The notes under the pieces were generated by a model, which saw only the letters and a list, made by a program, of their open reading frames with translations, made no database searches and was not told the DNA's origin. 64,000 nt of DNA from Gillisia sp. (GTDB taxonomy: Bacteria > Bacteroidota > Bacteroidia > Flavobacteriales > Flavobacteriaceae), in contig JBDXGW010000001.1 in assembly GCA_039989915.1 (NCBI GenBank), forward strand, positions 193,527 through 257,526. The letters run 5' to 3'. Both the position numbers and the translations under genes were made by a program. Positions 22,907-61,784 of this stretch are shown here, piece by piece. Numbering within the stretch: position 1 is the stretch's first letter; each line of letters opens with the position of its first letter.

Positions 22907-23251
22907 ATGAATATTATGAAATACTTCCTGGTTATTATAAATATTATGCTCTTTTCCGGTTGTGATCTCGAGGGTAACAACGGAGAAGAGATTAAGATGC
23001 GCGTGAACAGCTTTTCGGTAGAATGCGTTGGGGAAATGGAAGGAACCTGTTTGCTGGTGCAGGAAGGGGATAAAATAGGTACCGGAGAATGGGAATATTT
23101 TTATTATCATGACAGCATTATAGGTTTTGACTATGAACCCGGTTACATTTATGATCTCATTGTAAAGAGGAAAGAAATTGCCAATCTGCCGCAGGATGGT
23201 TCTGCTTTTGAATATGAACTTATAAAGATTGTTTCAAAGGAAAAAGTATAA
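22907..23251 (+). CDS. Small DUF4377-like lipoprotein
   Basis: Lipobox LFSGC. The pattern ...W..F...I.GF.YEPGY.Y.L.V matches what I recall of DUF4377. Confidence 0.7.
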   Translation: MNIMKYFLVIINIMLFSGCDLEGNNGEEIKMRVNSFSVECVGEMEGTCLLVQEGDKIGTGEWEYFYYHDSIIGFDYEPGYIYDLIVKRKEIANLPQDGSAFEYELIKIVSKEKV

Positions 23252-50513: not shown

Positions 50514-50522
50514 AATAAAGAA

Positions 50523-50906
50523 ATGACAAATAGCAAGAAAATATTGGTAGTAGATGATGATTCCGGGATTGGGGAGATGCTAAAGACCCTACTGGAATTT
50601 TATGGATATCAGGTCGAAGTGACTGAAAAACCTTATGAAACCGAGCAATTAATCCTGGATAAAAATATTGATCTGGTTCTTCTGGACATGTTGATCTCGG
50701 GCGTGAATGGCACCGATGTTTGTACCGCGATAAGGGAAAATGAGGCTACTGCCAACACCCCGGTAATTATGATGTCTGCCTTACACGATGCAGGACCAAA
50801 ATGCAAAAAAGCAGGAGCAAATGATTTTATAGCAAAACCTTTTGAAATGGAATTGCTTATAGGAAAGATCAATGGTGTATTTCCCGGGGAAGATCTACCT
50901 CAATAA
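50523..50906 (+). CDS. Stand-alone response-regulator receiver domain
   Basis: VVDDD acidic pocket, phospho-acceptor D in LVLLDMLISG, conserved K in IAKPF. No output domain. Confidence 0.9.
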   Translation: MTNSKKILVVDDDSGIGEMLKTLLEFYGYQVEVTEKPYETEQLILDKNIDLVLLDMLISGVNGTDVCTAIRENEATANTPVIMMSALHDAGPKCKKAGANDFIAKPFEMELLIGKINGVFPGEDLPQ

Positions 50907-50991: not shown

Positions 50992-51237
50992 TTAATTTAG
51001 GTCATTATTTACTTCTTCACCATTCACATCATCTGTATTGTTGATCTCCTCTTTTACTTCTCTCGAAACTTTCTTAGCCCCTTCTTCAATTTTTTTACCG
51101 GCTTTTTTAGTGTTTTCCTCAATGTCTTCACCAATTGCTTCTACAGCTTCCTTGGTTTTTTCCTGAGTGGTTTCACGACAGGAGTAAAATGATGTAGCCA
51201 TCCCGGCAAGCATCAGCATTAAAAATAACTTTTTCAT
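50992..51237 (-). CDS. Small charged lipoprotein, SCRET-family paralog P1 (81 aa)
   Basis: Signal peptide plus lipobox SFYSC followed by RETTQEK. The mature part is K/E-rich with an acidic tail NTDDVNGEEVNNDLN. It has its own terminator. Confidence 0.7.
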   Translation of the reverse strand: MKKLFLMLMLAGMATSFYSCRETTQEKTKEAVEAIGEDIEENTKKAGKKIEEGAKKVSREVKEEINNTDDVNGEEVNNDLN

Positions 51238-51426: not shown

Positions 51427-51642
51427 CTATTGCATGTCGTCATCAGCATTCATATCGTCAGTTCCGTCAATTTCTTCCTGAACTTCAGTTTCTGCTTCTT
51501 CGTAAGTTTCTTCAGTAGTAGTTTCGATGTCGTTTCCTACTTCTTCGAAAGCATCTTCAGTTTTTTCTTCAGTAGTCTCTCTACAAGAGTAGATAGATAA
51601 TGTGAAAACTGAAGCTAATAAAATAAGGGATAATTTTTTCAT
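51427..51642 (-). CDS. Small highly acidic lipoprotein, SCRET-family paralog P2 (71 aa)
   Basis: Lipobox SIYSC followed by RETTEEK. By hand count the mature 51 aa hold 23 D/E and only 2 basic residues. Confidence 0.7.
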   Translation of the reverse strand: MKKLSLILLASVFTLSIYSCRETTEEKTEDAFEEVGNDIETTTEETYEEAETEVQEEIDGTDDMNADDDMQ

Positions 51643-51670: not shown

Positions 51671-51678
51671 CAAATTTA
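51671..51678 (-). promoter_or_regulatory. Candidate -7 box (TAAATTTG on the minus strand) for paralog P2
   Basis: TAnnTTTG match 29 nt upstream of the P2 ATG, in the 45-nt gap after the DUF4130 gene. Confidence 0.35.
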
Positions 51679-51687
51679 AACTATTTT

Positions 51688-52470
51688 TTAATTATGCAAA
51701 GAACTCTTTTCAGTTAAATATTTCCAGTATCTTTTTGGCACATGTTGCTTGTGTAATTTCAGGTTTTTACGAGATTTAATATTTGTGCTTTTAAAATATT
51801 GTTGCCATAATTCCTTAAATTGAATCTCGGACACACTATAAATGCTGGATTGATAGTTTTTTTCAAAAACCCGTGTAGCAATATCCAGACTTATATAATT
51901 GGTTTCCTGCAGGTTATAAAACAACCCGAATTTTCGCTTCAAATCATAAATTATCCACTTTTGGTCAGCATACCGGCTTTCAAAATGCGGCAAAATAAGC
52001 GGGAGAACGTTAAAGTCGGGTTCAATATGAGCAAAGTAGATTTCATCTTTGGTAAGCATGAATCTCACAAATGCCTCCATCCTGTGTTTTTCCCTGCTCA
52101 CCATTTTTGAGGTTTGAGAAATCCTCAGAATTACAGGGTTCCCATAATCTCCTGTACTAAAATTATTAGTGTTAAAAACTAATTGTATGTACTGTAGTAA
52201 CTGGAGTTCTATACCCGGCAATTCGCTTAAAAAAGAAAAATATAATTGCCGCCTGCCACCACTGTCCAATTTGGTCTTCAGGGCTTGCTTTACCCGGGAA
52301 GCTTTTTTGAGATCTGTAATAACAGGCTCGGGGAGGGAGAAAAAATCCTGCTGAATATTGTCCTCTGTATAAATTGCAGTCACGTTAAGTTTCTGTTCGA
52401 ATGTTTGGAATACACAGGTTAAAAACCCTTCAAAGCTGCCATCATAGGCCAATATACTGTCTTTTTTCAT
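51688..52470 (-). CDS. TIGR03915/DUF4130-like putative DNA-metabolism protein (partner of the radical-SAM protein)
   Basis: N-terminus ILAYDGSFEGFLTCVF matches the family pattern. Its ATG overlaps the radical-SAM stop (TAATG). Confidence 0.8.
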   Translation of the reverse strand: MKKDSILAYDGSFEGFLTCVFQTFEQKLNVTAIYTEDNIQQDFFSLPEPVITDLKKASRVKQALKTKLDSGGRRQLYFSFLSELPGIELQLLQYIQLVFNTNNFSTGDYGNPVILRISQTSKMVSREKHRMEAFVRFMLTKDEIYFAHIEPDFNVLPLILPHFESRYADQKWIIYDLKRKFGLFYNLQETNYISLDIATRVFEKNYQSSIYSVSEIQFKELWQQYFKSTNIKSRKNLKLHKQHVPKRYWKYLTEKSSLHN

Positions 52471-53732
52471 TAGCTAAAGAGCATTAACTGGGTTCCATGG
52501 TCTTTTCGAAACTTTCCGCTCGAGTTCTGTAGGATCATTCCTTTAAGTCGCTCGCTGGAAAGTTCTCTTTTTTCCCAATGCGAGGAATCACAGGTTATAA
52601 AGTATTTTGCACGGTTAAGTGCCACCCCAATTTTCGCAAGGTGTTCCCAGTTGAGTTTTCTAAATCTTCTTGCCTGAATGATCTTGTGAACCGATTTCAT
52701 TCCTATTCCGGGAATTCTTGCCAGCAACCTTTTCTCGGCCCGGTTTATATCCAACGGGAAGAGATCCCTGTTGCGCAAAGCCCAGCTAAGTTTTGGATCT
52801 ACATCCAGGTCAAGGTTTGGATGCTGCTCATTTAATAGCTCCCTGATGTCAAAGCCGTAAAAACGCAGCAGCCAGTCTGTTTGATACAGGCGGTTTTCCC
52901 TGAGTAGTGGTACAGGGCTTCCCAGGGCCGGAAGTCGGGAATCATCTACCACGGGAATATATCCCGAATAATACACCCTTTTCATTTCGTATTTTTTATA
53001 GTAATAAGCGGCAGAGTACATTACATCCCGGTCGGTCTCGCCGGTGGCACCCACGATCATTTGTGTGCTTTGCCCTGCCGGTGCATATTTGGGAGTGCTC
53101 TTTATTATTTTTCGCTCGCTTTGATATTGGGTGATCCCTTCTTTCACCGCCTGCATAGGTTTTATGAAATCCTCATACTTCTTATCGGGCGCGAGGAGTT
53201 TTAATCCTGAAATGGTAGGGATCTCAATATTTACTGAAAGCCTGTCTGCATACAAACCCGCCTCCAGCATGAGTTCGTCGCTGGCCCCGGGAATTGATTT
53301 TAAATGAATATATCCGTTGAAGTTTTCTTCCAGCCTTAGCTTTTTGGCCACTGCCACCAGGCGTTCCATGGTGTGATCTGCACTTTTGAAGATCCCGGAG
53401 CTTAGGAACAATCCTTCTATATAATTACGCCGGTAAAAATTCATGGTGAGATCTACCACTTCCTGCACCTTAAAGGCAGCGCGTTTTATGTCATTGCTTT
53501 TTCGGGTCACACAATAGGCGCAATCAAAAATGCAGTGATTGGTAAGCAGGATCTTTAACAGGGAGACACATCTTCCATCTTCGGTATAGCTGTGGCATAT
53601 GCCTACACCATCGCTATTGCCCAGGCCTTTGTTCTTATTGGCTCTTTTGCTGCCGCTGCTGGAGCAGGAGATATCATACTTTGCAGCATCGGCCAAAATA
53701 TCCAGTTTTTCCTTTATTCGTTCAAATGACAT
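52470..53732 (-). CDS. TIGR03916-like putative DNA modification/repair radical-SAM protein
   Basis: N-terminal AAKYDISCSSSG block. CxxxCxxC cluster motif CIFDCAYC. C-terminal helix-hairpin-helix LLARIPGIGMKSVHKII. The start overlaps the dnaE2 3' end by 11 nt. Confidence 0.85.
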   Translation of the reverse strand: MSFERIKEKLDILADAAKYDISCSSSGSKRANKNKGLGNSDGVGICHSYTEDGRCVSLLKILLTNHCIFDCAYCVTRKSNDIKRAAFKVQEVVDLTMNFYRRNYIEGLFLSSGIFKSADHTMERLVAVAKKLRLEENFNGYIHLKSIPGASDELMLEAGLYADRLSVNIEIPTISGLKLLAPDKKYEDFIKPMQAVKEGITQYQSERKIIKSTPKYAPAGQSTQMIVGATGETDRDVMYSAAYYYKKYEMKRVYYSGYIPVVDDSRLPALGSPVPLLRENRLYQTDWLLRFYGFDIRELLNEQHPNLDLDVDPKLSWALRNRDLFPLDINRAEKRLLARIPGIGMKSVHKIIQARRFRKLNWEHLAKIGVALNRAKYFITCDSSHWEKRELSSERLKGMILQNSSGKFRKDHGTQLMLFS

Positions 53733-56700
53733 GTGGGTCTTGATTTTCTGTTCTTATTTCTTTTCGTTCCCCTATTTTTTTGATCTTTTCCAGTCTTTGC
53801 GCGGTAACAGGGTTCTCTTCTGAAAAACGGGGGTCTGTGATATATGCTTCCTTGCGCATTTTGTGTACTTCAAGGCTCAATACTTCAAATTCCTCACTTA
53901 CTTTCCCATAGAGGGCATATATTCCCAGGCCGTGAAAACTGTATTGTTGTGCCACGGGCGGGAAAAGTACCGCGTCAAAGAAATATCCCGCACGGTCCAG
54001 GAACGTTCCAAAATACATTACCTCCCCTTTAAAGGTTTTAGTGTATTTTATTGTTACCAGGTAGCCGTAGATAAGGATATTCCTGTTGATGAAAGCTTTA
54101 AAATCCTTTTCGCAATAGCGGGTCCTGGGTTCTTCCTTCAGTAGATCAAAATGGCTGCACAGGGGAAATCCCAGCAATTCAATTTGTTCAAAGGCAGCTT
54201 CCAGCCGGGTGGTGTGAAGATCGGGCAGGGAAAACTTTTTGTGCGTTGGCATGAACAGGGGCAGTTGCTCGGGTTTTCGGGGCGTTTTAGAAAGCTTGAA
54301 ATGGGCGTCCCACAACAGTTTGAATTTATCTATCCCCGTAAACCTAAAGGCATTGATCCTTATAAGAATGCTCAATTGTTCAATTCCAATGGATACCCGG
54401 TCTATGAAATTTTCAAAAGAGGTGAACTTTCCGTGAAAATTCCTGTTTTCAATAATTCGCTGTGCTGCCCGTTGCTCGAGTTCCTTTAAATTTCCAAATC
54501 CCAGATACAGGTGTTTCCCTTTGATGGTGTTATGAAAATCGCCCTCATTAATACAGGGCGGTTCTATAATGGCACCACACATTTTTGCCTCGTGCACATA
54601 AAGTTCGGGGGTATAGAATCCGCCACCGTTATTAAGCACGGCAACCATATATTCCAGGGGGAAATAAGTTTTGAGAAAGAGGCTCTGGTAACTCTCGGCC
54701 GCATAACTGGCAGAGTGGCCTTTTGCAAAGGTGTAGCCTGCAAAGCTCTTTATCTGCTCCCATACTTCAAAGATCATTTTCTCTTCAATATTTCTTTCGC
54801 GGCAGTTGGCAATGAATTTTTCCTCCACTTTTAGAAATTCAGCCCGGGAGCGAAATTTCCCGCTCATCCCTCGCCGCAATACATCGGCTTCGGCCAGGCT
54901 AAGTCCCGCAAAGAAATGGGCTACCTTGATCACATCTTCCTGGTACACCATGATCCCATAGGTATCTGGCATGATCTTTTCCAGTTCAGGATGGGCGAGC
55001 TTGCGGCGGGAAGGATCCCGATGGCGCATTATATATTCCCGCATCATTCCGCTTTTGGAAACGCCGGGCCGTATAATAGAACTGGCAGCTACAAGCCCCA
55101 GGTAGGTATCGGTTTTAAGTTTCCTCAACAGGTTTCTCATTCCCGGAGATTCTATATAGAAACATCCCATACAATTCCCTTCTTTGATAAGGTTATTGAT
55201 TTTAGGATCCTTCTTGAATTTCTTCAGGTCATGAATATCAAAAGGGGGTGCCTCGGGTTGATTTTCAGCAATTATGTCCAGGGTGTCCTTGATCTTTCCG
55301 AGTCCGCGTTGGGCAAGAATGTCAAATTTATAGAGCCCCACATCCTCGGCTATGATCATATCAAACTGTACCGTAGGGAAACCTTTGGGCGGCAGGTCCA
55401 GGGCAGAGAAGCAGGTGAGGGGTTTGGAGGAGATAAGAATACCTCCCGCGTGGATGCTGCGGTAATTGGGCATTCCCTCTATGAGTTTGCCGTATTTAAG
55501 CACGGTCCTGTGAATGGCATCCATATAATTCCCCGGCGCGCGGCCTTCACATAATAGATCTATGTCCTCTTTGGGCAATCCAAACACTTTTCCCAACTCG
55601 CGTATTACGGCACGGTATTGAAAGGTGTTATAAGTAGCCAGCAGGGCGGTGTGTTCAAACTCTTCAAAGATGAACCGGGTCATATCCTCGCGATCCTGCC
55701 AGGAGAAATCTATATCAAAGTCGGGCGGACTCGTACGAAACTCGTTTATAAATCGCTCAAAATAAAGGTCAAGTTCTATGGGGTCAACCTCGGTGATCTG
55801 GAGTAAATGAGCTACAATACTGTTGGCACCGCTGCCGCGGCCCACGTAGAAATAGCCTTTCTCCCGGGCATACCCGCAAATACGCCAGTTGATGAGAAAA
55901 TAAGACACAAAATTGAGTTTTTTTATCACCTTTAATTCTGTTGCTACCCGCTCGAGGATCTCTGGAGTTGGGTTGGGATATCTAAGGTTGATGCCTTCCC
56001 GGCAAAGTTCTTCCAGCAGTTTTTCATCTTCTTCCCTGCTGCCTTTGTATACCTGTTGATTCTGCGGTACCCTGGCTGCTGAAAAGTCAAAGTGAATGCT
56101 GCACTGGTCCAGAAGGTTGCGGGTATTATCAAGGATAAATGCAAAATCCCTGAATCTTTCTTCCAGTATTTCCTGCGGAAGCATTTTTTCATCTGTTCCC
56201 GCCTCTTCTTCGGGGGGGAGTTTACTAAGCAGGCAGTTGTTATCTATGGCTCGCAGAAGGCGGTGGGCATTGAAATCGCGTTTGTTCCTCACCGTAACCG
56301 GTTGTAGTACTACCAGCCGGGAGGTCATTTCCCTAAGTTTGGAAAAGCGCAGTTTTCGCAGTTCATTTATAGAAACCCCAATAAATTCATGGGGCAGGAA
56401 CCGGGTGGTTTCTGCAGCCATGATTTTTTCAAACGGGTAGATCACAAAAGCATTTTTAAAGGAGGGCGCTTTTTCAGGGATCATCAGTTTTTCCTGAAGA
56501 TGGCGTGATAAATACGCGTTTATTTCCTCAAAACCTTCATTGTTTTTTGCCAGCGCCACAAATTGTTGCTGTGCCCCGTTGCGAAAGTCAATTCCCAATA
56601 CCGGGGTGATCCCATACTCGGGAGCTTTTCTCACAAAATTCAGGCAGGCCGAGGTGTTGTTAATGTCGGTAAGGGCCAGTTTTTTCACCTGGTTTTCCCG

Positions 56701-56775
56701 CGCCAGTTCCAGCAATTCAATTTCTGAAAAGGTGCCAAAGCGCATGCTGTAATATGTATGGGTGTTCAGGTACAC
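53722..56775 (-). CDS. dnaE2: Error-prone DNA polymerase III alpha-subunit paralog (DnaE2-type)
   Basis: 1017 aa. N-terminal PHP domain (YLNTHTYYSMRFG) and pol III alpha core blocks (HAGGILIS, DFDIDFS, KFDILAQRGL). It sits downstream of a Y-family polymerase and opposite a LexA-like gene. GTG start. Confidence 0.9.
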   Translation of the reverse strand: MYLNTHTYYSMRFGTFSEIELLELARENQVKKLALTDINNTSACLNFVRKAPEYGITPVLGIDFRNGAQQQFVALAKNNEGFEEINAYLSRHLQEKLMIPEKAPSFKNAFVIYPFEKIMAAETTRFLPHEFIGVSINELRKLRFSKLREMTSRLVVLQPVTVRNKRDFNAHRLLRAIDNNCLLSKLPPEEEAGTDEKMLPQEILEERFRDFAFILDNTRNLLDQCSIHFDFSAARVPQNQQVYKGSREEDEKLLEELCREGINLRYPNPTPEILERVATELKVIKKLNFVSYFLINWRICGYAREKGYFYVGRGSGANSIVAHLLQITEVDPIELDLYFERFINEFRTSPPDFDIDFSWQDREDMTRFIFEEFEHTALLATYNTFQYRAVIRELGKVFGLPKEDIDLLCEGRAPGNYMDAIHRTVLKYGKLIEGMPNYRSIHAGGILISSKPLTCFSALDLPPKGFPTVQFDMIIAEDVGLYKFDILAQRGLGKIKDTLDIIAENQPEAPPFDIHDLKKFKKDPKINNLIKEGNCMGCFYIESPGMRNLLRKLKTDTYLGLVAASSIIRPGVSKSGMMREYIMRHRDPSRRKLAHPELEKIMPDTYGIMVYQEDVIKVAHFFAGLSLAEADVLRRGMSGKFRSRAEFLKVEEKFIANCRERNIEEKMIFEVWEQIKSFAGYTFAKGHSASYAAESYQSLFLKTYFPLEYMVAVLNNGGGFYTPELYVHEAKMCGAIIEPPCINEGDFHNTIKGKHLYLGFGNLKELEQRAAQRIIENRNFHGKFTSFENFIDRVSIGIEQLSILIRINAFRFTGIDKFKLLWDAHFKLSKTPRKPEQLPLFMPTHKKFSLPDLHTTRLEAAFEQIELLGFPLCSHFDLLKEEPRTRYCEKDFKAFINRNILIYGYLVTIKYTKTFKGEVMYFGTFLDRAGYFFDAVLFPPVAQQYSFHGLGIYALYGKVSEEFEVLSLEVHKMRKEAYITDPRFSEENPVTAQRLEKIKKIGERKEIRTENQDPHVI

Positions 56776-57033
56776 GGGGTTTAGTAGTTAGTTCTTAGTT
56801 CTTAGTAGTTAGAAGGATCTCTTGAGGCGCTTACTCCTGAGACGCTTACTCCTGAGACGCGAAGCATCTTTTGTGGCGTAAGGCATTACGCCTTTACTTT
56901 TTTTCTGAGACGCGAAGCATCTCTTGAGAGGCACAAGCATTGCGCCTTTACTTTCTTTTCCTGAGACACGAAGCATCGCGTCTTTACTCTCTTTTCCTCT
57001 TTGTCTTTTTTTCTCTTTCCCTCCCGTAGGGCC
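56776..57033. repeat. Intercistronic spacer of tandem degenerate units of about 45 bp, each with a stem-loop
   Basis: Hairpins at 56882-56899 (ggcgtaa/ttacgcc), 56937-56953 (ggcaca/tgcgcc) and 56965-56982 (gacacg/cgcgtc). Each is followed by tttact(y)t plus a pyrimidine run. Direct repeats cttactcctgagacg x2 and (t)tagt(t)agtt words are also present. Confidence 0.8.
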
Positions 57034-58248
57034 TTACTGCTTCCTGTGCGCCAGCACCACCGGTGGCTCCCCGTTAAAAGGATTGGTCATTCTTCCTATG
57101 GTCTTTGCGCCCAGAGAGGCGGCTCGCAACACACTGCGGTCGCCGTAACGGTTTCGTATCTTATCCATCGCATTGTATAATTGAAGTACTTCTTCATTGT
57201 CATCAAATAGATTTATCTGGTAATTCCCGCCGGCGAGGTGGCTAAAGCGTATGCCTATGAGCCTTACCAGCAGCCTGCGGTTGTAGAGTTTTTTAAAGAT
57301 CTCCTGGATCTTGGGGATGAGGATATGGTCGGCACTGGTGTACGGGATCTTGAGTTGCCGGGTATAGGTGTTGAAATCTGAATACCTGATCTTTACCGCG
57401 ATACAGGAGGTGAGTTTGTCTCCCCGGCGCAGCTGGTAAGCCAGATTCTCTGTCATGGCCAGCAGGATAGCCTGCAGTCTTGCCACATCAATAGTATCGC
57501 GGTCAAAAGTGCGCTCGGTAGAAATAGATTTTCGTTCAGAATAGGGGATCACCGGGGTGTTATCTACTCCCTGTGCGCGGTGCCAGATGGTGGTGCCGTT
57601 GCTGCCCAGCACCTTTTGCATCATTTCCAGCGGCATTTCCTGGATGGTCTTAATTTGTCTCACGCCCAGGTTGCGCAGGGTCTGGTAGGTTTTATCGCCT
57701 ACCATGGGGATCTTTCTTACAGATAGCGGCGCCAGGAATTCCTTCTCAAATCCTGAATCAATTTTTAACTGATTGTTGGGCTTAGCCTCATTGGTGGCTA
57801 CTTTGGATACTATTTTGTTTACTGAAAGTCCAAAGGAAATAGGCAGCCCGGTTTCCCGAATGATCCTTTTACGAAGTTCAGAAGCGTATTTATAGCAGCC
57901 AAAAAAGCGGTCCATCCCTGTAAGATCGGCATAGAATTCATCAATGCTGGATTTTTCAAAGAGGGGAACATCTGCCCGGATGATATCTGTGACATCTTTG
58001 GAATATTTGGTATATGTCCCCGCGTCGCCACGAATCACTGTAGCTTCGGGACAAAGCTGCCGCGCCAGTTTCATGGACATACCGGAGTGTACTCCAAAGG
58101 CCCGGGTCTCATAGCTGCACGCCGCAACCACCCCACGGTCGCTGATCCCGCCCACCAGTAACGGCCGGTGTAAAAGCCGGCTATCCAGCAGCCGTTCTAC
58201 AGAGACGTAGAAGGTATCAAGATCAAGATGTAATACTGTTTTTATCAT
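57034..58248 (-). CDS. Y-family DNA polymerase (DinB/ImuB-like) with intact catalytic residues
   Basis: HLDLDTFYVSVE and SIDEFYADLT align to the DinB catalytic D/D/E. Little-finger region present. The start is set at MIKTVLHLD (58248). Confidence 0.9.
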   Translation of the reverse strand: MIKTVLHLDLDTFYVSVERLLDSRLLHRPLLVGGISDRGVVAACSYETRAFGVHSGMSMKLARQLCPEATVIRGDAGTYTKYSKDVTDIIRADVPLFEKSSIDEFYADLTGMDRFFGCYKYASELRKRIIRETGLPISFGLSVNKIVSKVATNEAKPNNQLKIDSGFEKEFLAPLSVRKIPMVGDKTYQTLRNLGVRQIKTIQEMPLEMMQKVLGSNGTTIWHRAQGVDNTPVIPYSERKSISTERTFDRDTIDVARLQAILLAMTENLAYQLRRGDKLTSCIAVKIRYSDFNTYTRQLKIPYTSADHILIPKIQEIFKKLYNRRLLVRLIGIRFSHLAGGNYQINLFDDNEEVLQLYNAMDKIRNRYGDRSVLRAASLGAKTIGRMTNPFNGEPPVVLAHRKQ

Positions 58249-58266
58249 AATGTTCGCTGCGCTCAC

Positions 58267-58735
58267 GTTTGTAGTTTAGAGTTTATGGTTTAAAAAAGTA
58301 GTGAGTAGTGAGTGGGGAGTAGTGATTAGTGATCAGTCATTAATTCGCTTCGCTCACGTTCGGGGTTCAGGGTTTAGTTCAGGGTTAGTTTGTACTAATT
58401 ATCAACCTACACCTGACAACTCACAACTCACAATCCATAACTCCTAACTCATTTTTTAGTGATTAGGGAATAGTGAGTAGTGAGTGGTGAATAGTGAGTA
58501 GTGAGTGGTGAATAGTAAATAGTGAGTAGTGAGATATGAGAAAACTCCTTTATCCATTTACCTTTCCGCTTTTCCTCTTTGACTTTTTAACTCTTCCAAT
58601 CCACTTTCCACTCTTTTCCTCTTTAACTCTTTTCCTATTTATCTTTTTTAACCTACAACCTTACAACCTTACAACCTTACAACCCCTAACTTCTAACTTC
58701 TAACTTCTAACTCCTAACTCAACTTGGAATCTTTA
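58267..58735. repeat. Simple-repeat mosaic upstream of the polymerase operon
   Basis: C-free blocks at 58267-58333 and 58451-58544 ((a)gtgagt/gaatagtga words). G-free block at 58582-58725 (ccactttcc, ccttacaa x3, taacttc x3). No ORF. Confidence 0.85.
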
Positions 58736-58798
58736 CAAAATTATGGAATTATTCCATTAAATAGGAAATAATCCAATGTTAAAGTTGGACTTATTCCA
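58736..58798. promoter_or_regulatory. Candidate divergent promoter/operator of the LexA-like repressor
   Basis: Perfect 7-1-7 palindrome ATGGAATTATTCCAT (58743-58757). Two related sites follow: GGAAATAATCC (58764-58774) and TGGACTTATTCCA (58786-58798). A minus-strand TAATTTTG -7 box (58736-58743) abuts the palindrome. Confidence 0.4.
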
Positions 58799-58817
58799 AA
58801 AAAAATTATATTTGTGT

Positions 58818-59585
58818 ATGGGAACAGATGTAACAATAGAGGTTAAGCGATTTAAGGAAATTCGCGATGACCATAATTTCACCCAATCGGAATTTGCAGA
58901 GGTGTTGGGAATCAAGAATTCCACTGCCGATATTGAGCGGGGTCGCACCAAATTATCGGGTAAGATCGTAGCAGAACTCTTGCGGCAATTTGGGGTAAAT
59001 CCCCTTTGGTTGTTTGGAGACAGCAGCCAGAAATACCTCCCGGTGAACAAGGGGGATGTAAGTCCAAAAGTGGTGACCGTAAACAGCGGGGAAGAGGAGA
59101 ATATAGTTCTTGTAAATCAAAAAGCTGCTGCAGGTTATCCCTCCAATGTTCAGGATGTGGAATGGTACCAGCAACTGCCGGCATTTGATATACCGCTACC
59201 CGAATACCGCAATGCCACTTACCGTGGGTTTCAGGTAGAAGGAGATAGTATGATGCCCAATTTAAGACCGGGAGAGTGGGTCTTGGGAAAAGCGGTGCCC
59301 AGTATTGCAGAAGTAAGCTACAGCAAGATCTATGTGGTGGTATTGTATGATTCGGTTCTGGTCAAGAAGATCCAGAAAATGGAAGATCCCTATAAGATCC
59401 TTCTGGTTTCCATCAATGAAGAATATCCACCTGTACAGGTTCTGGTAAGTGAGATCCAGGAATTATGGCAGGTGAACAGCAAGCTCACTTTCAGTATTGA
59501 CGCAACTTCAGAAAACGGATTGCTGCGGCAGTTGCAACAGTCTATGGAAGAATTGAAAAGCGAGTTCAAAACCTTAAAGCACTAA
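58818..59585 (+). CDS. Non-canonical LexA-like repressor (XRE-type HTH plus S24 autopeptidase)
   Basis: HTH FTQSEFAEVLGIKNSTADIERGRTKLS. Cleavage-site-like KAAAGYP (compare LexA VAAGEP). Ser nucleophile in EGDSMMP. Lys in VLVKKIQ. It is divergent from the polymerase operon. The start is set at MGTDV (58818); TTG 58776 is also possible. Confidence 0.85.
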   Translation: MGTDVTIEVKRFKEIRDDHNFTQSEFAEVLGIKNSTADIERGRTKLSGKIVAELLRQFGVNPLWLFGDSSQKYLPVNKGDVSPKVVTVNSGEEENIVLVNQKAAAGYPSNVQDVEWYQQLPAFDIPLPEYRNATYRGFQVEGDSMMPNLRPGEWVLGKAVPSIAEVSYSKIYVVVLYDSVLVKKIQKMEDPYKILLVSINEEYPPVQVLVSEIQELWQVNSKLTFSIDATSENGLLRQLQQSMEELKSEFKTLKH

Positions 59586-59588
59586 AAA

Positions 59589-59611
59589 ATCCATTCTGGT
59601 TAGGAATGGAT
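59589..59611. terminator. Hairpin terminator shared by the LexA-like gene and paralog P3
   Basis: atccattc-tggttag-gaatggat with flanking A6 and T-rich runs. Confidence 0.6.
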
Positions 59612-59640
59612 CTTTAAAATTTTAAGTAATAACCGGATGG

Positions 59641-59784
59641 TTAATCCAGGTCATCTCCAATATCGTCTACTGCATCTTCAACATCATCTGCAGCTTTTTC
59701 AACACCAGACCTGTCATCTCTACAGGAAGTAAAAACTACACTGGTAGAAAAGGCAAGTGCCAGTACAAACATTAATTTTTTCAT
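59641..59784 (-). CDS. Small highly acidic lipoprotein, SCRET-family paralog P3 (47 aa; not in the ORF track)
   Basis: My translation of the minus strand is MKKLMFVLALAFSTSVVFTSCRDDRSGVEKAADDVEDAVDDIGDDLD*. The signal peptide, lipobox and VEKAADD segment are homologous to P4. Confidence 0.6.
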   Translation of the reverse strand: MKKLMFVLALAFSTSVVFTSCRDDRSGVEKAADDVEDAVDDIGDDLD

Positions 59785-59824
59785 AATTCAAGTTTTAGTG
59801 GTTGGAATATTAAATATAAAAAAA

Positions 59825-59858
59825 ATCGGGAGAAAACCTATTAAAGTTTTCTCCCGAT
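59825..59858 (-). terminator. Terminator of paralog P4
   Basis: atcgggagaaaac...gttttctcccgat, a 13-bp perfect stem with flanking A8 and T-rich runs. Confidence 0.8.
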
Positions 59859-59868
59859 TTCTTTATTA

Positions 59869-60114
59869 TTAAAGATCGTCGTTACCTTCAATCTCATCTT
59901 CCACATCCTGTGCAGCACGCTCAACAGCATTTCCTGCATCATCGGCGGCTCTTTCAACGTCGTTACCTACATCATCCAGGTCATCAACGTCATCAAGATC
60001 ATCCATGTCGTCATTTACTTCTATTTCATTTTTTTCTTCAGTTGTTTCTCTACAAGAAGTGAAAAATGCACTGAAAGTAAAAGCAGTCGCTAATATTAAA
60101 ATTGACTTTTTCAT
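59869..60114 (-). CDS. Small highly acidic lipoprotein, SCRET-family paralog P4 (81 aa)
   Basis: Lipobox FFTSC followed by RETTEEK. Internal repeats DDLDDV x2 and GN(D/A)VERAA x2. By hand count about 27 of 60 mature residues are D/E. Confidence 0.7.
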   Translation of the reverse strand: MKKSILILATAFTFSAFFTSCRETTEEKNEIEVNDDMDDLDDVDDLDDVGNDVERAADDAGNAVERAAQDVEDEIEGNDDL

Positions 60115-60181
60115 TGTTTCGTGTTTTAATTAATAGTTTTTGATTGGGTTAAGAATATTAAACTTGATTATGAAATACCAA

Positions 60182-60418
60182 CTAGTTATCGTCAATATCA
60201 TCTATTTTACGATCAATTTCTCTATTGATCTTGTCATCCACTTTTTTGGCACTTCTCTCGAAAACGCCTTCCCGCTCTTCAACTTTCACCTCAACCGGCT
60301 GGGTTCTTTCCACTTCAACTTCTCTTATTACCGTTTCCTTTTCAGCAGTTTCCCTGCAGGAAATTAAAGTTGTAGCCGATGCAAGAATTATTGCAGTACT
60401 TAAAATAATTCGTTTCAT
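60182..60418 (-). CDS. Small charged lipoprotein, SCRET-family paralog P5 (78 aa)
   Basis: Lipobox TLISC followed by RETAEKE. The mature part is E/V/R/K-rich with an acidic tail KIDDIDDN. The start is set at MKRIIL (60418). Confidence 0.7.
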   Translation of the reverse strand: MKRIILSTAIILASATTLISCRETAEKETVIREVEVERTQPVEVKVEEREGVFERSAKKVDDKINREIDRKIDDIDDN

Positions 60419-60533
60419 ATTATATATGATTAAATTTCTCTTGGTCGAAATTACCACATAAATTATTCGAGCACTCTTGTTTTTGGTAAATTTTAATATA
60501 AATTAAAAGAAATTTTAGCTTTTGCGAGGAAAT

Positions 60534-61784
60534 TTAAGGGTTTTTAACATTTGAAGCTTCTAAATAAGCCTCAACAATGCTTCCAGCCCCGGTGTTATCT
60601 TTAATAAATCGGTCGCCTATTGCTCCGCATTCTTTTCTGAGATCATCATTTGTCAACAATCGGGTGAAAATTTCCTGAAGTTCCTCTGGTGTGTTTACAG
60701 AGAAAAGCCCTCCAAGATCCCGGAGATTTGTTGCTTCAGGGAAATTCTTAAAATTCCTACCTATAACAATAGGAACACCAAAAGCTGCCGGTTCCAGGAT
60801 ATTATGAAGCCCGGTGTTCCCGGCGGCCCCTCCCACATAAGCAAGGTCTGCGTAACTATAAATACGGGTGAGCAGGCCAATAGTATCAATGATCACAACC
60901 TTAAATTCTGAAAGGTTACCTTTTTCCTTTTCTGAAAATAATATCACCGGGGGATTGATCTTTTTTCTGAAAGTTTCAATATCCTCCTTTTTGATTTGAT
61001 GCGGCGCAAGGATAAACTTTACTTCTTCAGGTGAATTATTAATAAATTCCAGCAACAGCTTTTCATCCTCCGGCCAGGTGCTTCCTGCCACTATGCAGGT
61101 CTTTCCGCCAAGAAAGACATCTATGAAATTCAGATGATTATCCATTTTGAGTTGGCGCGAAACCCGGTCAAACCGCGTGTCCCCGCTCACGGTTACATTG
61201 CTGAAGCCAATTGAATGGAGCAACTCTTTGGATTGTTCATTTTGAACAAAGAAGTGTTCAAAGGTTTGCAGCGATCTTTTCATCCAGCTGCCATACGATT
61301 TAAAGAAAACCTGATCCTTCCGGAAAGCACCGGAAATAAGTAGGGTGCGAATAGTATGGTCTTTGAGTACCTGTAAGTAATTTGGCCAGAACTCATATTT
61401 AATGAACAACGCCAGGTCCGGATGCATTATTTCTATAAAAGTTTTTGCATTTGCGGGAGTATCCAGCGGAAGATACACTACAACATCTGCCAGGGGGGTG
61501 TTCTTTTTATTCTCATAACCGGATGGGGAAAAAAAACTTACCACTATCTTGTGTTTAGGATAGATCCTTTTTACGATCTCAATTATAGGGACCCCCTGTT
61601 CAAACTCCCCAAGGGAAGCTGCATGGAACCAGATAACCTTATCTTCGGGCTTGATATTCTTCTCTAAAACTGAAAAAGTATCTTTTCTCCCATCAACAAA
61701 TTGCTTCATTTTAGGACTAAAAGCTGCAGGGATAGGAAGCAGCTTTTCTGCCGCGCGAATTAATGCATTATAAAGTTTGTTCAA
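60534..61784 (-). CDS. waaA: 3-deoxy-D-manno-octulosonic acid (Kdo) transferase
   Basis: IWFHAASLGEFEQGVPII block and a GT-B C-terminal half (VGGAAGNTGLHNILEPAAFGVPI). 416 aa, TTG start. Confidence 0.9.
   Translation of the reverse strand: MNKLYNALIRAAEKLLPIPAAFSPKMKQFVDGRKDTFSVLEKNIKPEDKVIWFHAASLGEFEQGVPIIEIVKRIYPKHKIVVSFFSPSGYENKKNTPLADVVVYLPLDTPANAKTFIEIMHPDLALFIKYEFWPNYLQVLKDHTIRTLLISGAFRKDQVFFKSYGSWMKRSLQTFEHFFVQNEQSKELLHSIGFSNVTVSGDTRFDRVSRQLKMDNHLNFIDVFLGGKTCIVAGSTWPEDEKLLLEFINNSPEEVKFILAPHQIKKEDIETFRKKINPPVILFSEKEKGNLSEFKVVIIDTIGLLTRIYSYADLAYVGGAAGNTGLHNILEPAAFGVPIVIGRNFKNFPEATNLRDLGGLFSVNTPEELQEIFTRLLTNDDLRKECGAIGDRFIKDNTGAGSIVEAYLEASNVKNP

What the first reader, a model, noticed from the sequence alone, without database searches (positions are those of the whole stretch)
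59641..60418. Tandem trio of tiny poly-acidic 'SCRET' lipoprotein genes, one missed by the ORF track
Three consecutive minus-strand genes encode products of 47, 81 and 78 aa. Each has a near-identical architecture: MKK/MKR signal peptide, a lipobox ending in (T/I)SC, then RETTEEK, RETAEKE or RDDRSG, then a low-complexity acidic body and a C-terminal (G/I)(N/D)DD tail. P3 (59641-59784, MKKLMFVLALAFSTSVVFTSCRDDRSGVEKAADDVEDAVDDIGDDLD) is below the track's size cut-off, and I found it by translating the gap. P4 has the internal repeats DDLDDV x2 and GN(D/A)VERAA x2. By hand count P3 and P4 are about 45% D+E with no aromatic residues in the mature part. P3 and P4 each have a hairpin terminator; I found none after P5. 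In Bacteroidota, acidic residues just after the lipidated Cys have been linked to surface export of lipoproteins, so these could be surface-tethered polyanions. Roles could include cation binding, hydration or osmoprotection, or charge shielding. I know of no characterised family like this.
Basis: partly seen in the sequence, partly recalled or inferred. Interest (0 to 1): 0.62.

Follow-up and report, generated by a model that had tools for sequence, protein, structure and literature searches.

The report
Conserved family of tiny acidic lipoproteins
Three real, conserved genes for very small, strongly acidic, lipid-anchored envelope proteins sit just downstream of the LPS gene kdtA in a Gillisia-like flavobacterium; they belong to an uncurated multigene family found across Flavobacteriaceae, and their function is still untested.

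Summary
P3 (59641-59784), P4 (59869-60114) and P5 (60182-60418) are minus-strand ORFs with the stated sequences. Each has a signal peptide ending in (T/I)SC. Mature parts are 33-44% D+E. P3 and P4 have terminator hairpins; P5 has none.

All three are real genes. dN/dS against Gillisia orthologues is 0.05-0.14 with saturated dS. Small "SCR(E/D)" lipoprotein genes lie just downstream of kdtA in 61 of 80 related Flavobacteriaceae loci.

The trio is part of a larger array of five subfamilies:
- A: P5.
- B: P4.
- C: absent from the window.
- D: P3.
- E: P1 and P2 at 51427-51642 and 50992-51237.

P3, P4, P1 and P2 share an 11-residue amphipathic acidic repeat. The mature part of P5 is a separate family, with relatives in Fibrobacteria.

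No Pfam or NCBIfam model covers any of them. Matches to Ag473, Lpp/OprI, YtxH and PG1828 are all sub-threshold. Arg at +2 and Glu/Asp at +3 after the Cys are near-invariant. This does not match the canonical Bacteroidota surface-export signal, except arguably in P3.

The most likely role is a membrane-tethered, hydrophilin-like polyanion that binds cations and water in the envelope. That role is inferred, not shown.

The parts
60182..60418 (-). P5, a 78-aa prolipoprotein of subfamily A. It has a signal peptide ending LISC, then RE, a Thr/Glu/Lys/Val-rich linker, and a C-terminal helix EGVFERSAKKVDDKINREIDRKIDDIDDN.
   Evidence: ORF and translation. 32 close homologues, plus 542 found with a profile. 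90 representative clusters at 50% identity, all 52-134 aa. dN/dS 0.08-0.11. AF2 predicts only helix 52-75, mean pLDDT 59.
59869..60114 (-). P4, an 81-aa prolipoprotein of subfamily B. It has a signal peptide ending FTSC, then RE, a (DD-hydrophobic)5 acidic tract, two 11-residue GNxVERAAxDx repeats, and a GNDDL tail.
   Evidence: 36 homologues with copy-number variation in both repeat types. dN/dS 0.14. AF2: residues 20-46 disordered, helix 47-76, pLDDT 53. No promoter box and no terminator between P5 and P4, so it is probably co-transcribed with P5.
59641..59784 (-). P3, a 47-aa prolipoprotein of subfamily D. It has a signal peptide ending FTSC, then RDDRSG, and one acidic amphipathic unit VEKAADDVEDAVDDIGDDLD.
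   Evidence: Orthologues of 43-50 aa in Gillisia-like, Autumnicola and Christiangramia loci. dN/dS 0.05-0.12 with dS above 1.2.
60446..60453 (-). Bacteroidota-type -7 promoter box candidate TAATTTCG (consensus TAnnTTTG). It starts 35 nt upstream of the P5 ATG.
   Evidence: The same position carries TAGATTTG or TAGCTTTG in Aequorivita subfamily-A genes and TAATTTCG in Gillisia loci.
59811..59818 (-). -7 box candidate TATATTTA, starting 34 nt upstream of the P3 ATG.
   Evidence: This is a one-mismatch match and is inferred only.
59819..59864 (-). Intrinsic terminator after P4: a 20-bp stem followed by a T8 run.
   Evidence: -28.6 kcal/mol, z -8.6.
59585..59615 (-). Intrinsic terminator after P3: a stem of about 12 bp followed by a T5 run.
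   Evidence: -15.6 kcal/mol, z -4.7.
51427..51642 (-). P1, a 71-aa subfamily-E paralogue (IYSC then RETTEEK, ending GTDDMNADDDMQ). It has a perfect -7 box TAAATTTG at 51671-51678 and its own terminator.
   Evidence: Orthologue in L049. dN/dS 0.36.
50992..51237 (-). P2, an 81-aa subfamily-E paralogue (FYSC then RETTQEK).
60534..61784 (-). kdtA/waaA (Kdo transferase, Glycos_transf_N). It is the conserved upstream neighbour on the same strand, 115 nt from P5.
   Evidence: Pfam label on the orthologous gene in L083.
58776..59585 (+). HTH_3 plus Peptidase_S24 (LexA-like) gene, convergent with P3. It is a conserved downstream neighbour of the array.

Best explanation
P5, P4 and P3 are three real, expressed-type genes for very small lipoproteins. 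They belong to a lineage-restricted multigene array in Flavobacteriaceae: kdtA, then A, B, C and/or D, then a convergent LexA-like gene, then E.

**Proposed architecture and action.**
1. Each precursor has a type-II signal peptide with lipobox (F/L)(T/G/S)SC. The Cys would be lipidated and become residue 1 of a 27-61-residue mature protein.
2. Next comes a near-invariant Arg(+2)-Glu/Asp(+3), then a short disordered polar tether.
3. The body ends in one amphipathic, strongly acidic helix. In P4 and P3 (and in P1 and P2) this is an 11-residue repeat, G-D-A-(I/V)-E-x-A-A-(D/E)-(D/E)-(T/V), with a narrow Ala/Val stripe and a broad carboxylate face. In P5 it is a different, more conserved helix.
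4. I propose that they act as abundant membrane-tethered polyanions of hydrophilin or LEA type at the outer-membrane/periplasm interface, or possibly on the cell surface. There they would bind divalent cations and water and so buffer or shield the envelope.

**Transcription.** P5 and P4 probably form one transcript from a promoter downstream of kdtA. P3 has its own promoter-like box and its own terminator.

**Shown here.** Coding status, purifying selection, lipoprotein-type signal, composition, periodicity, predicted disorder plus helix, synteny and terminators.

**Inferred.** Lipidation, localisation, abundance, cation or water binding, and any physiological role.
For: **Coding and conservation.**
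- dN/dS is 0.05-0.14 with dS saturated.
- SCR(E/D) small lipoprotein genes lie downstream of kdtA in 61 of 80 loci spanning Gillisia, Aequorivita, Salegentibacter, Christiangramia, Altibacter, Ulvibacter, Leeuwenhoekiella and others.
- The same order appears on a 4.0-Mb chromosome record (CP016359.1, L083): DegT-type aminotransferase gene, kdtA-type (Glycos_transf_N) gene, a 79-aa subfamily-A gene, an unannotated 98-aa gene, then an HTH_3 plus Peptidase_S24 gene.

**Signal peptide and motif.**
- Cys is invariant and Ser at -1 is found in 125 of 127 sequences.
- Arg at +2 is found in 121 of 127, always followed by D or E.
- None of about 9 larger lipoproteins in the same DNA carry C-R-(D/E).

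**Body of the protein.**
- Net charge is -6 to -23, GRAVY is -1.0 to -1.5, and there are almost no aromatic residues.
- Autocorrelation peaks fall at lags 4, 7, 11, 18 and 22. The hendecad consensus has apolar residues at the a, d, e and h positions.
- AF2 gives a disordered linker plus a single helix.
- Recurrent sub-threshold matches go to 11-mer amphipathic families: YtxH, phasin, apolipoprotein, DUF948, sll1863 stress protein and HSP12.

**Transcription signals.** -7 boxes lie 34-36 nt upstream of the ATGs of P5, P3 and P1. Strong terminators follow P4 and P3.

**RNA.** Metatranscriptome contigs of close relatives (90-97% identity) cover P3, P4 and P5.
Against: - There is no experimental evidence for lipidation, location, abundance or ion binding.
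- No isolate RNA-seq or proteome was available. The metatranscriptome contigs are low depth and may contain DNA.
- The hydrophilin criterion of more than 6% Gly is met only by P3 (7.4%). P4 has 4.9% and P5 has 1.7%.
- No canonical Ca2+-binding motif (EF-hand, DxDxDG) is present.
- P5-type proteins are only moderately acidic, with many Lys and Arg. Their conserved helix suggests a specific partner rather than bulk polyanion behaviour.
- The AF2 models are low confidence (pLDDT 53-59).
- The linkage to kdtA could be inherited gene order with no functional meaning. P5 has its own promoter-like box.
Confidence: 0.4

Rival explanations
1. Surface-tethered polyanions. The acidic residues after the Cys act as the Bacteroidota lipoprotein export signal, so the proteins are flipped to the cell surface. 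There they form a negatively charged brush.
For: - P3 begins C-R-D-D, a basic or polar residue followed by two acidic ones. This is the same register as the F. johnsoniae SDDFE and B. fragilis SDDDD signals, which function in C. canimorsus (PMC5080379).
- All family members have D or E at +3.
- The Neisseria analogue Ag473 is described as a surface lipoprotein (PMC3402496).
Against: - The minimal signal needs two adjacent acidic residues. P4 (R-E-T-T-E-E), P5 (R-E-T-A-E-K) and the family consensus (R-E-T-K-T-E) have only one at +3/+4.
- In C. canimorsus, D and E are absent from +3, and KDD placed directly after the Cys exports poorly.
- Fibrobacteria relatives of P5 have C-G-K-(R/K) instead.
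Confidence: 0.25
2. Accessory factors of outer-membrane or LPS biogenesis. The conserved position next to kdtA (and next to an Omp85-family gene in Fibrobacteria) reflects a functional partnership. For example, the conserved P5-type helix could dock onto an envelope-assembly protein or onto LPS through cation bridges.
For: - Subfamily A lies directly downstream of kdtA in 45 loci across many genera.
- Fibrobacteria relatives lie about 110-210 nt downstream of an Omp85-type gene in two MAGs.
- The P5-type helix has invariant positions (E54, R55, D61, N65, I72, I75), which looks like a specific interface.
Against: - P5 has its own promoter-like box, so co-transcription with kdtA is not needed.
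- About a quarter of kdtA loci lack the genes, including Aquimarina and Dokdonia.
- The two Fibrobacteria MAGs are closely related, so they count as one observation.
- Similarity to PG1828 disappears once the signal peptide is removed.
Confidence: 0.13
3. Lpp/OprI-like structural lipoproteins. The Ala-rich hendecad helices oligomerise into coiled coils that set periplasmic spacing or stiffen the outer membrane, in a phylum reported to lack a recognisable Braun lipoprotein.
For: - The mature size (52-62 aa) is comparable with the 90-position Lpp/OprI profile, which includes the signal peptide.
- Core-type a, d, e and h positions are filled by Ala, Val or Ile.
- Sub-threshold Ala_zip_lipo matches occur in 11 of 23 E/B-type relatives, best E 3.4e-5. 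P4 itself gives 0.011.
- Bacteroides have no identifiable Lpp orthologue (PMC11573676).
Against: - Scores are below the curated cut-off (16 against 43 bits).
- C-termini are D, N, L or Q, with no Lys or Arg for peptidoglycan cross-linking.
- A net charge of -21 to -23 would strongly oppose self-association without cations.
- P3 has only one repeat unit.
- AF2 confidence is low.
Confidence: 0.1
4. Entericidin-like tandem small lipoproteins with membrane-active (toxin and antidote) behaviour.
For: - They are tandem paralogous genes for 40-50-aa lipoproteins.
- UniRef labels some P3-type relatives 'Entericidin EcnAB'.
- Pfam Entericidin gives weak matches in 4 of 37 P4-type relatives.
Against: - Pfam Entericidin does not match P3 or any of nine P3-type relatives, even at E up to 10.
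- The mature peptides are extremely acidic rather than near-neutral amphipathic. That is ill-suited to inserting into anionic membranes.
Confidence: 0.04
5. Chance ORFs in AT-rich spacer DNA, not genes.
For: The ORFs are very short, the sequence is low complexity, and no domain matches.
Against: - dN/dS is about 0.1 with saturated synonymous change.
- Reading frame, Cys and tails are conserved across genera.
- Promoter boxes and terminators are placed around the ORFs.
Confidence: 0.01

Closest known systems
Ag473 (NMB1468) family lipoprotein of Neisseria meningitidis (NCBIfam NF047840)
   Same: It is a small lipoprotein of about 10 kDa. It is Ala/Glu-rich, has no aromatic residues, contains short tandem helical repeats, and has no known cellular function (PMC3402496). 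Weak matches persist after signal-peptide removal for Aequorivita E-type relatives (25 bits).
   Different: - Its repeat is 7 residues rather than 11, and it is far less acidic.
- Window proteins score at most 19 bits against a cut-off of 100. Their mature parts give no match except P2, at E 0.05.
- It comes from a different phylum.
Group-3 LEA proteins, hydrophilins and YtxH (PF12732): 11-mer amphipathic-helix stress proteins
   Same: They share an 11-residue periodicity with a narrow apolar stripe, extreme hydrophilicity, and predicted disorder with helix propensity. YtxH, phasin and apolipoprotein appear as recurrent sub-threshold matches, and UniRef names some relatives 'YtxH domain-containing'.
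   Different: - The window proteins are lipid-anchored and exported rather than cytoplasmic or anchored by a transmembrane helix.
- They are almost purely acidic, not mixed Lys/Glu.
- No Pfam match reaches threshold, and there are none at all for the window proteins.
- Gly content is below the hydrophilin criterion in P4 and P5.
Lpp/OprI alanine-zipper lipoproteins (NCBIfam NF040598)
   Same: They have a lipid-anchored N-terminus, are helical, and have small residues at core positions. The mature length of the window proteins (52-62 aa) is comparable with the 90-position profile, which includes the signal peptide.
   Different: - The window proteins lack a C-terminal Lys or Arg for peptidoglycan attachment.
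- They are polyanionic.
- Their repeat is a hendecad, not a heptad.
- They score below the cut-off.
Entericidin EcnA/EcnB (PF08085)
   Same: These are tandem paralogous genes encoding 40-50-aa envelope lipoproteins that contain G-x-x-I-x-x-A-A-like units.
   Different: P3-type proteins give no Pfam match. Their charge is very different, and there is no evidence of toxin and antidote behaviour.
PG1828 family lipoprotein of Porphyromonas gingivalis (NCBIfam NF050142)
   Same: It is a small Bacteroidota outer-membrane lipoprotein. Every E/B/D-type relative tested gives a sub-threshold match, best E 1.6e-8.
   Different: The matches rest on the signal peptide and vanish for mature sequences. Window proteins score 12-22 bits against a cut-off of 50.

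Membership tests
Bacterial lipoprotein (type-II signal peptide substrate) | N-terminal basic n-region, hydrophobic h-region and a lipobox ending in Cys within about 15-25 residues | tested here: met
   The precursors begin MKK or MKR, have 14-17 apolar residues, and end FTSC, FTSC or LISC. Cys is invariant and Ser at -1 occurs in 125 of 127 relatives.
Bacterial lipoprotein (type-II signal peptide substrate) | Actual diacylglyceryl modification and LspA cleavage at the Cys | not testable with these tools
   This needs globomycin sensitivity, a Cys mutant, or mass spectrometry.
Bacteroidota surface lipoproteins carrying the lipoprotein export signal (LES) | A polar or basic residue followed by two adjacent acidic residues at +3 to +5: C-X-K-(D/E)2-X, or S-D-D-type | tested here: inconclusive
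   P3 (C-R-D-D) fits the SDD register. P4 (C-R-E-T-T-E-E) and P5 (C-R-E-T-A-E-K) have a single acidic residue at +3/+4. Definition taken from PMC5080379.
Ag473 family lipoprotein (NF047840) | Whole-protein score at or above the curated cut-off of 100 bits | tested here: not met
   P1 scores 19 bits. The best mature-only relative scores 25 bits. P3, P4 and P5 give no match.
PG1828 family lipoprotein (NF050142) | Whole-protein score at or above 50 bits, with the match extending into the mature part | tested here: not met
   P3 scores 21.3, P4 12.1, P5 13.4 and P1 22.3 bits. No match remains once the signal peptide is removed.
Lpp/OprI alanine-zipper lipoprotein (NF040598) | Score at or above 43 bits | tested here: not met
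   P4 scores 16.3 bits. The mature-only relative scores 13.2 bits.
Lpp/OprI alanine-zipper lipoprotein (NF040598) | C-terminal Lys or Arg available for linkage to peptidoglycan | tested here: not met
   The C-termini are ...DDIDDN...GNDDL and ...GDDLD.
YtxH-like protein (PF12732) | Pfam match at the gathering threshold | tested here: not met
   No match for P3, P4 or P5 even at E up to 10. 12 of 37 P4 relatives match, with best E only 0.008.
Entericidin EcnA/B (PF08085) | Pfam match at the gathering threshold | tested here: not met
   None for P3 or nine P3-type relatives. 4 of 37 P4-type relatives match, best E 0.025.
Hydrophilins (Garay-Arroyo criteria, from general knowledge) | Mean hydrophilicity above 1 and Gly above 6% | tested here: inconclusive
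   GRAVY is -1.03 to -1.24 for all three. Gly is 7.4% in P3, 4.9% in P4 and 1.7% in P5, counted from the sequences.

The most novel reading that the evidence does not exclude
C-R-(E/D) directly after the lipidated Cys is a dedicated sorting code in Flavobacteriaceae, different from the known surface-export signal. It would direct a whole class of tiny polyanionic lipoproteins to one envelope compartment. There they would form a tethered fixed-anion layer, a protein counterpart of the anionic periplasmic glucans of Proteobacteria, which controls cation activity and hydration next to the LPS leaflet.
Probability: 0.12. Interest if true: 0.7.

Novelty: new variant of a known kind. Interest (0 to 1): 0.45.

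Why it matters
Lipoprotein sorting in Bacteroidota is only partly understood, and only the surface-export signal has been defined.

- **A possible sorting motif.** Five subfamilies share an almost invariant C-R-(E/D) start but have unrelated mature bodies. This makes a natural test set for a second sorting or retention rule.
- **An overlooked envelope component.** Tiny, very acidic, tethered helices encoded in 3-5 copies per genome and kept across many marine and polar genera could be abundant. They could matter for salt, cold or cation stress.
- **An annotation gap.** All are labelled 'hypothetical', and two automatic names (YtxH, Entericidin) do not hold up.

If the proteins turn out to be only minor, redundant stress proteins, the finding is of modest, mainly curatorial value.

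Tried and rejected
1. **Pfam and NCBIfam scans of the three proteins.** No family was found. The only matches were driven by the signal peptide.
2. **PG1828 membership.** Rejected, because the matches vanish without the signal peptide.
3. **YtxH and Entericidin labels used by UniRef.** They could not be reproduced at threshold.
4. **Solved structures.** No meaningful sequence match. The best was the Leishmania SHERP helix at E 0.04. Fold search was not run, because both AF2 models are a single low-confidence helix.
5. **Single-linkage BLAST clustering of the mature parts.** It collapsed everything into one cluster because of low complexity. It was replaced by motif classes and hhalign.
6. **Genome-wide frequency of C-R-(D/E) among lipoproteins.** Only about 9 other lipoproteins were available in the window and loci, none with the motif. 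This is suggestive, but the sample is small.
7. **Isolate RNA-seq.**
   - None was found for this organism.
   - Only low-depth metatranscriptome contigs of relatives were available.
8. **Literature searches.** Searches for acidic or hydrophilin-type lipoproteins, and for a Bacteroidota inner-membrane retention signal, found nothing specific to this family.
9. **Canonical Ca2+ motifs (EF-hand, DxDxDG).** Inspected by eye in P4 and in subfamily C, and not present.
Full report
**1. The observation**

The ORF lister begins P5 at an upstream GTG (60457). All homologues begin MKR or MKK, so the 78-aa ATG start is correct.

The mature parts, counted from the Cys, are as follows:

| Protein | Mature length | D+E | Net charge | GRAVY | Aromatic residues |
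|---|---|---|---|---|---|
| P3 | 27 aa | 44% | -9 | -1.03 | none |
| P4 | 61 aa | 44% | -23 | -1.22 | none |
| P5 | 58 aa | 33% | -6 | -1.24 | one Phe |

P4 contains (DD-hydrophobic)x5, which includes DDLDDV twice. It also contains GNDVERAA and GNAVERAA exactly 11 residues apart.

Folding confirms a very strong terminator after P4 (-28.6 kcal/mol, z -8.6, then U8). There is a good one after P3 (-15.6 kcal/mol, z -4.7, then U5). Nothing follows P5 (z +0.8).

**2. They are genes**

Using the upstream Kdo transferase (KdtA, 60534-61784) as an anchor, I fetched 80 loci from other Flavobacteriaceae. The closest KdtA is only 65% identical and comes from a Gillisia MAG.

In 61 of the 80 loci, one to five small ORFs follow kdtA on the same strand. 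Each has a lipoprotein signal peptide, then C-R-(E/D), then an acidic body.

Nei-Gojobori estimates against Gillisia-type orthologues are:
- P3: dN/dS 0.05-0.12.
- P4: dN/dS 0.14.
- P5: dN/dS 0.08-0.11.
- Synonymous sites are saturated in all cases (dS above 1.2).

The protein sequence of all three, including the 47-aa P3, is therefore under purifying selection.

Database searches agree:
- P4 has 36 homologues.
- P5 has 32 close homologues.
- A subfamily-A profile finds 542 clusters at 90% identity.
- An exhaustive profile search of 1.84 billion representatives returns only 90 clusters at 50% identity. All are stand-alone proteins of 52-134 aa.

This is a compact, lineage-restricted family and not a domain of larger proteins.

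P3's exact sequence is already present in public protein sets. Close relatives are annotated 'hypothetical protein' or 'predicted small secreted protein'. It was therefore 'missed' only by the first stage's length cut-off.

**3. Anatomy of the array**

Sorting the 150 or so proteins by motif gives five subfamilies.

| Subfamily | Window member | Typical sequence | Loci |
|---|---|---|---|
| A | P5 | ...TETKEVIREVEVE...EGILERTAKEVDKEVNEEIDKKIDEIGNDD | 45 |
| B | P4 | ...ADDVEDVADD...ENTGTGGTDD, or GNDDL | see note below table |
| C | none | ...EEMQDKGADIKVKDDGDKIKMETEDEKVKIKTDDDGNVKIK (beta-like alternation) | 36 |
| D | P3 | one acidic unit | 9, mostly Gillisia-like |
| E | P1, P2 | YSCRETT...GDAIDNAADATEDAMEDAGDAVE... 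| see note below table |

B and E together account for 67 proteins; my motif split gives 32 B and 34 E.

The usual gene order is kdtA, then A, then B and/or C and/or D, then a convergent HTH_3 plus Peptidase_S24 (LexA-like) gene, then E.

In the window and in Gillisia, a cassette lies between the LexA-like gene and the E-type genes. It comprises dinB/imuB-like, dnaE2-like, radical-SAM and DUF4130-like genes.

Profile-profile comparison of the mature parts alone shows which subfamilies are related:
- B relates to E (96.5% probability, E 1e-9).
- B relates to D (75%).
- A and C are unrelated to these and to each other.

The 'near-identical architecture' is therefore real as architecture. But P5's body is a different family from those of P3 and P4.

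Distant subfamily-A members occur in two Fibrobacteria MAGs:
- They keep the helix motif G(H)LERAGEKIDAKVNRKIDEAID.
- They begin ACGK(R/K) rather than SCRE.
- They lie downstream of an Omp85-family gene.

**4. Shared features**

*The start of the mature protein.* Across 127 proteins, residue -1 is Ser in 125 and +2 is Arg in 121. Every one of those 121 has Asp or Glu at +3. About nine larger lipoproteins in the same DNA start CKK, CQT, CTP, CSF, CNS and so on, and none has C-R-(D/E). The motif looks family-specific, although that control sample is small.

*The 11-residue repeat.* Subfamilies B, D and E show autocorrelation peaks at lags 4, 7, 11, 18 and 22, both for residue identity and for hydrophobicity. 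The derived unit is G-D-A-(I/V)-E-x-A-A-(D/E)-(D/E)-(T/V). Apolar residues fall at hendecad positions a, d, e and h, and carboxylates fall elsewhere. Copy number of both the DDx tract and the 11-mer varies between homologues.

*Predicted structure.* AlphaFold2, run with family alignments, predicts a disordered segment after the signal peptide followed by one helix. The helix spans residues 52-75 in P5 and 47-76 in P4. Confidence is low, with mean pLDDT 59 and 53.

*The C-terminus.* Many members end G-(N/T/D)-D-D-x, which looks like a Gly helix cap plus an acidic tail.

**5. Transcription signals**

A Bacteroidota-type -7 box (TAnnTTTG) starts 34-36 nt upstream of three start codons:
- P5: TAATTTCG.
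- P3: TATATTTA.
- P1: TAAATTTG.

The same position holds TAGATTTG in Aequorivita A genes and TACTTTTG in E genes.

B and C genes follow A after 25-70 nt, with neither a box nor a terminator between them. The likely units in the window are therefore P5-P4 and then P3, with possible read-through.

No RNA-seq of the organism exists in the index. Low-depth contigs from four libraries labelled RNA (one a 'metagenomic RNA-Seq' library, three metatranscriptomic or transcriptomic) cover P3, P4 and P5 of 90-97% identical relatives. This is weak support for expression, because DNA carry-over cannot be excluded.

**6. Comparison with known families**

- Pfam has nothing for the three proteins, even at E up to 10.
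- Among relatives, Pfam gives only sub-threshold matches. They recur to amphipathic 11-mer families: YtxH (12 of 37, best E 0.008), phasin, apolipoprotein and DUF948.
- NCBIfam gives PG1828-family and Ag473-family matches for most relatives, with best E values of 1.6e-8 and 5.2e-9, both below the curated cut-offs.
- When the signal peptide is removed, the PG1828 matches disappear. Only weak Ag473 matches remain (at most 25 bits against 100), for Aequorivita E-type proteins and not for P3, P4 or P5.
- Lpp/OprI alanine-zipper matches are also below cut-off, and the C-terminal Lys or Arg needed for peptidoglycan linkage is absent.
- UniRef's 'Entericidin' and 'YtxH' names for some relatives are not reproduced.
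- No solved structure is related by sequence.

The proteins therefore resemble a known kind, small helical-repeat envelope lipoproteins and hydrophilins, but belong to none of the curated families.

**7. Surface export**

The experimentally defined lipoprotein export signal is C-X-K-(D/E)2-X in C. canimorsus. There, D and E are absent from +3, and KDD placed directly after the Cys exports poorly. The consensus is SDDFE in F. johnsoniae and SDDDD in B. fragilis, and both work in C. canimorsus. The minimal rule is two acidic residues preceded by a polar or basic one (PMC5080379).

P3 (C-R-D-D) satisfies this in the F. johnsoniae register. P4, P5 and the family consensus C-R-E-T-K/T-T/E do not. 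The location of the proteins is therefore open. I rate surface exposure at about one in four, and consider attachment facing the periplasm more likely.

**8. Most likely mechanism**

*Shown here:*
- Conserved small genes with type-II signal peptides.
- A tether-plus-helix design.
- Extreme acidity and hydrophilicity.
- Hendecad amphipathic periodicity.
- Multiple tandem paralogues with their own promoter-like boxes and strong terminators.

*Inferred:*
- After lipidation, the proteins sit on a membrane face as flexible polyanions.
- Their carboxylate-rich helices bind Mg2+/Ca2+ and water, in the way LEA-type hydrophilins shield surfaces.
- This would stabilise or buffer the envelope in marine, saline or cold habitats, where most host genera live. 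That habitat statement rests on general knowledge.

P5-type proteins are less acidic and have a sharply conserved helix. They sit next to kdtA, or next to an Omp85 gene in Fibrobacteria. They may instead have a specific partner in envelope biogenesis. I give the combined best explanation 0.4. The gene, lipoprotein and family part is near certain, and the function part is about one in three.

**9. Novelty and score**

I found no paper on this family and no curated model. I class it as a new variant of a known kind. The most interesting element is the invariant C-R-(E/D) shared by unrelated mature bodies, which may be a sorting code. Interest is 0.45.

Noticed in passing
window 58290-58720: The roughly 500-bp spacer between the divergent dinB-like and LexA-like genes is a patchwork of at least seven different 7-8-nt tandem arrays: AGTAGTG x5, GTTCAGG x4, ACAACTC x5, TAGTGAG x11, CTCTTTTC x4, AACCTTAC x4.5 and CTAACTT x5. 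The equivalent spacer in a Gillisia MAG (L004 6990-7770) also holds several 7-8-nt arrays, but with different units. The purpose is unknown.
   Followed up: partly
window 51688-59585: An SOS-type mutagenesis cassette lies here: an HTH_3 plus Peptidase_S24 LexA-like gene (58776-59585, +), a dinB/imuB-like gene (57034-58266, -), a dnaE2-like gene (53722-56775, -), a radical-SAM DNA-repair-type gene (52470-53732, -) and a DUF4130-like gene (51688-52470, -). It separates P3 from P1 and P2. In Aequorivita the E-type lipoprotein gene follows the LexA-like gene directly.
   Followed up: partly
L007 5635-5871 and 35 other loci: A fifth related subfamily (C) has a beta-strand-like alternation and D-(D/E)-D-G-(D/N)-x-K-I-K repeats, for example ...DGDKIKMETEDEKVKIKTDDDGNVKIK. 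It is common next to kdtA in Aequorivita, Altibacter and Ulvibacter but is absent from the window.
   Followed up: partly
L081 2908-3156; L082 3944-4207: Two Fibrobacteria MAGs encode relatives of the P5 subfamily. They start ACGK(R/K) instead of SCRE. Each lies about 110-210 nt downstream of a 680-716-aa Omp85-family gene and is convergent with a porin-like gene.
   Followed up: partly
L039 4565-4693; L049 8807-8935; L059 8369-8491; L062 5010-5132; L073 6447-6569: A different, highly conserved 40-42-aa lipoprotein-like ORF, MKKLMFILA...ASCTPES...DEQQIDKDKYE(I/V)PPNG, recurs a few kb from kdtA in five loci.
   Followed up: no
window 22916-23251 (+): A 111-aa predicted lipoprotein begins C-D-L-E-G-N-N-G-E-E. 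It is a different and more typical acidic N-terminus than the C-R-E family.
   Followed up: no
window 47868-50906 (+): A large multi-PAS histidine kinase (881 aa) and an adjacent single-domain response regulator (127 aa) lie just beyond P2, on the opposite strand and convergent with it.
   Followed up: no
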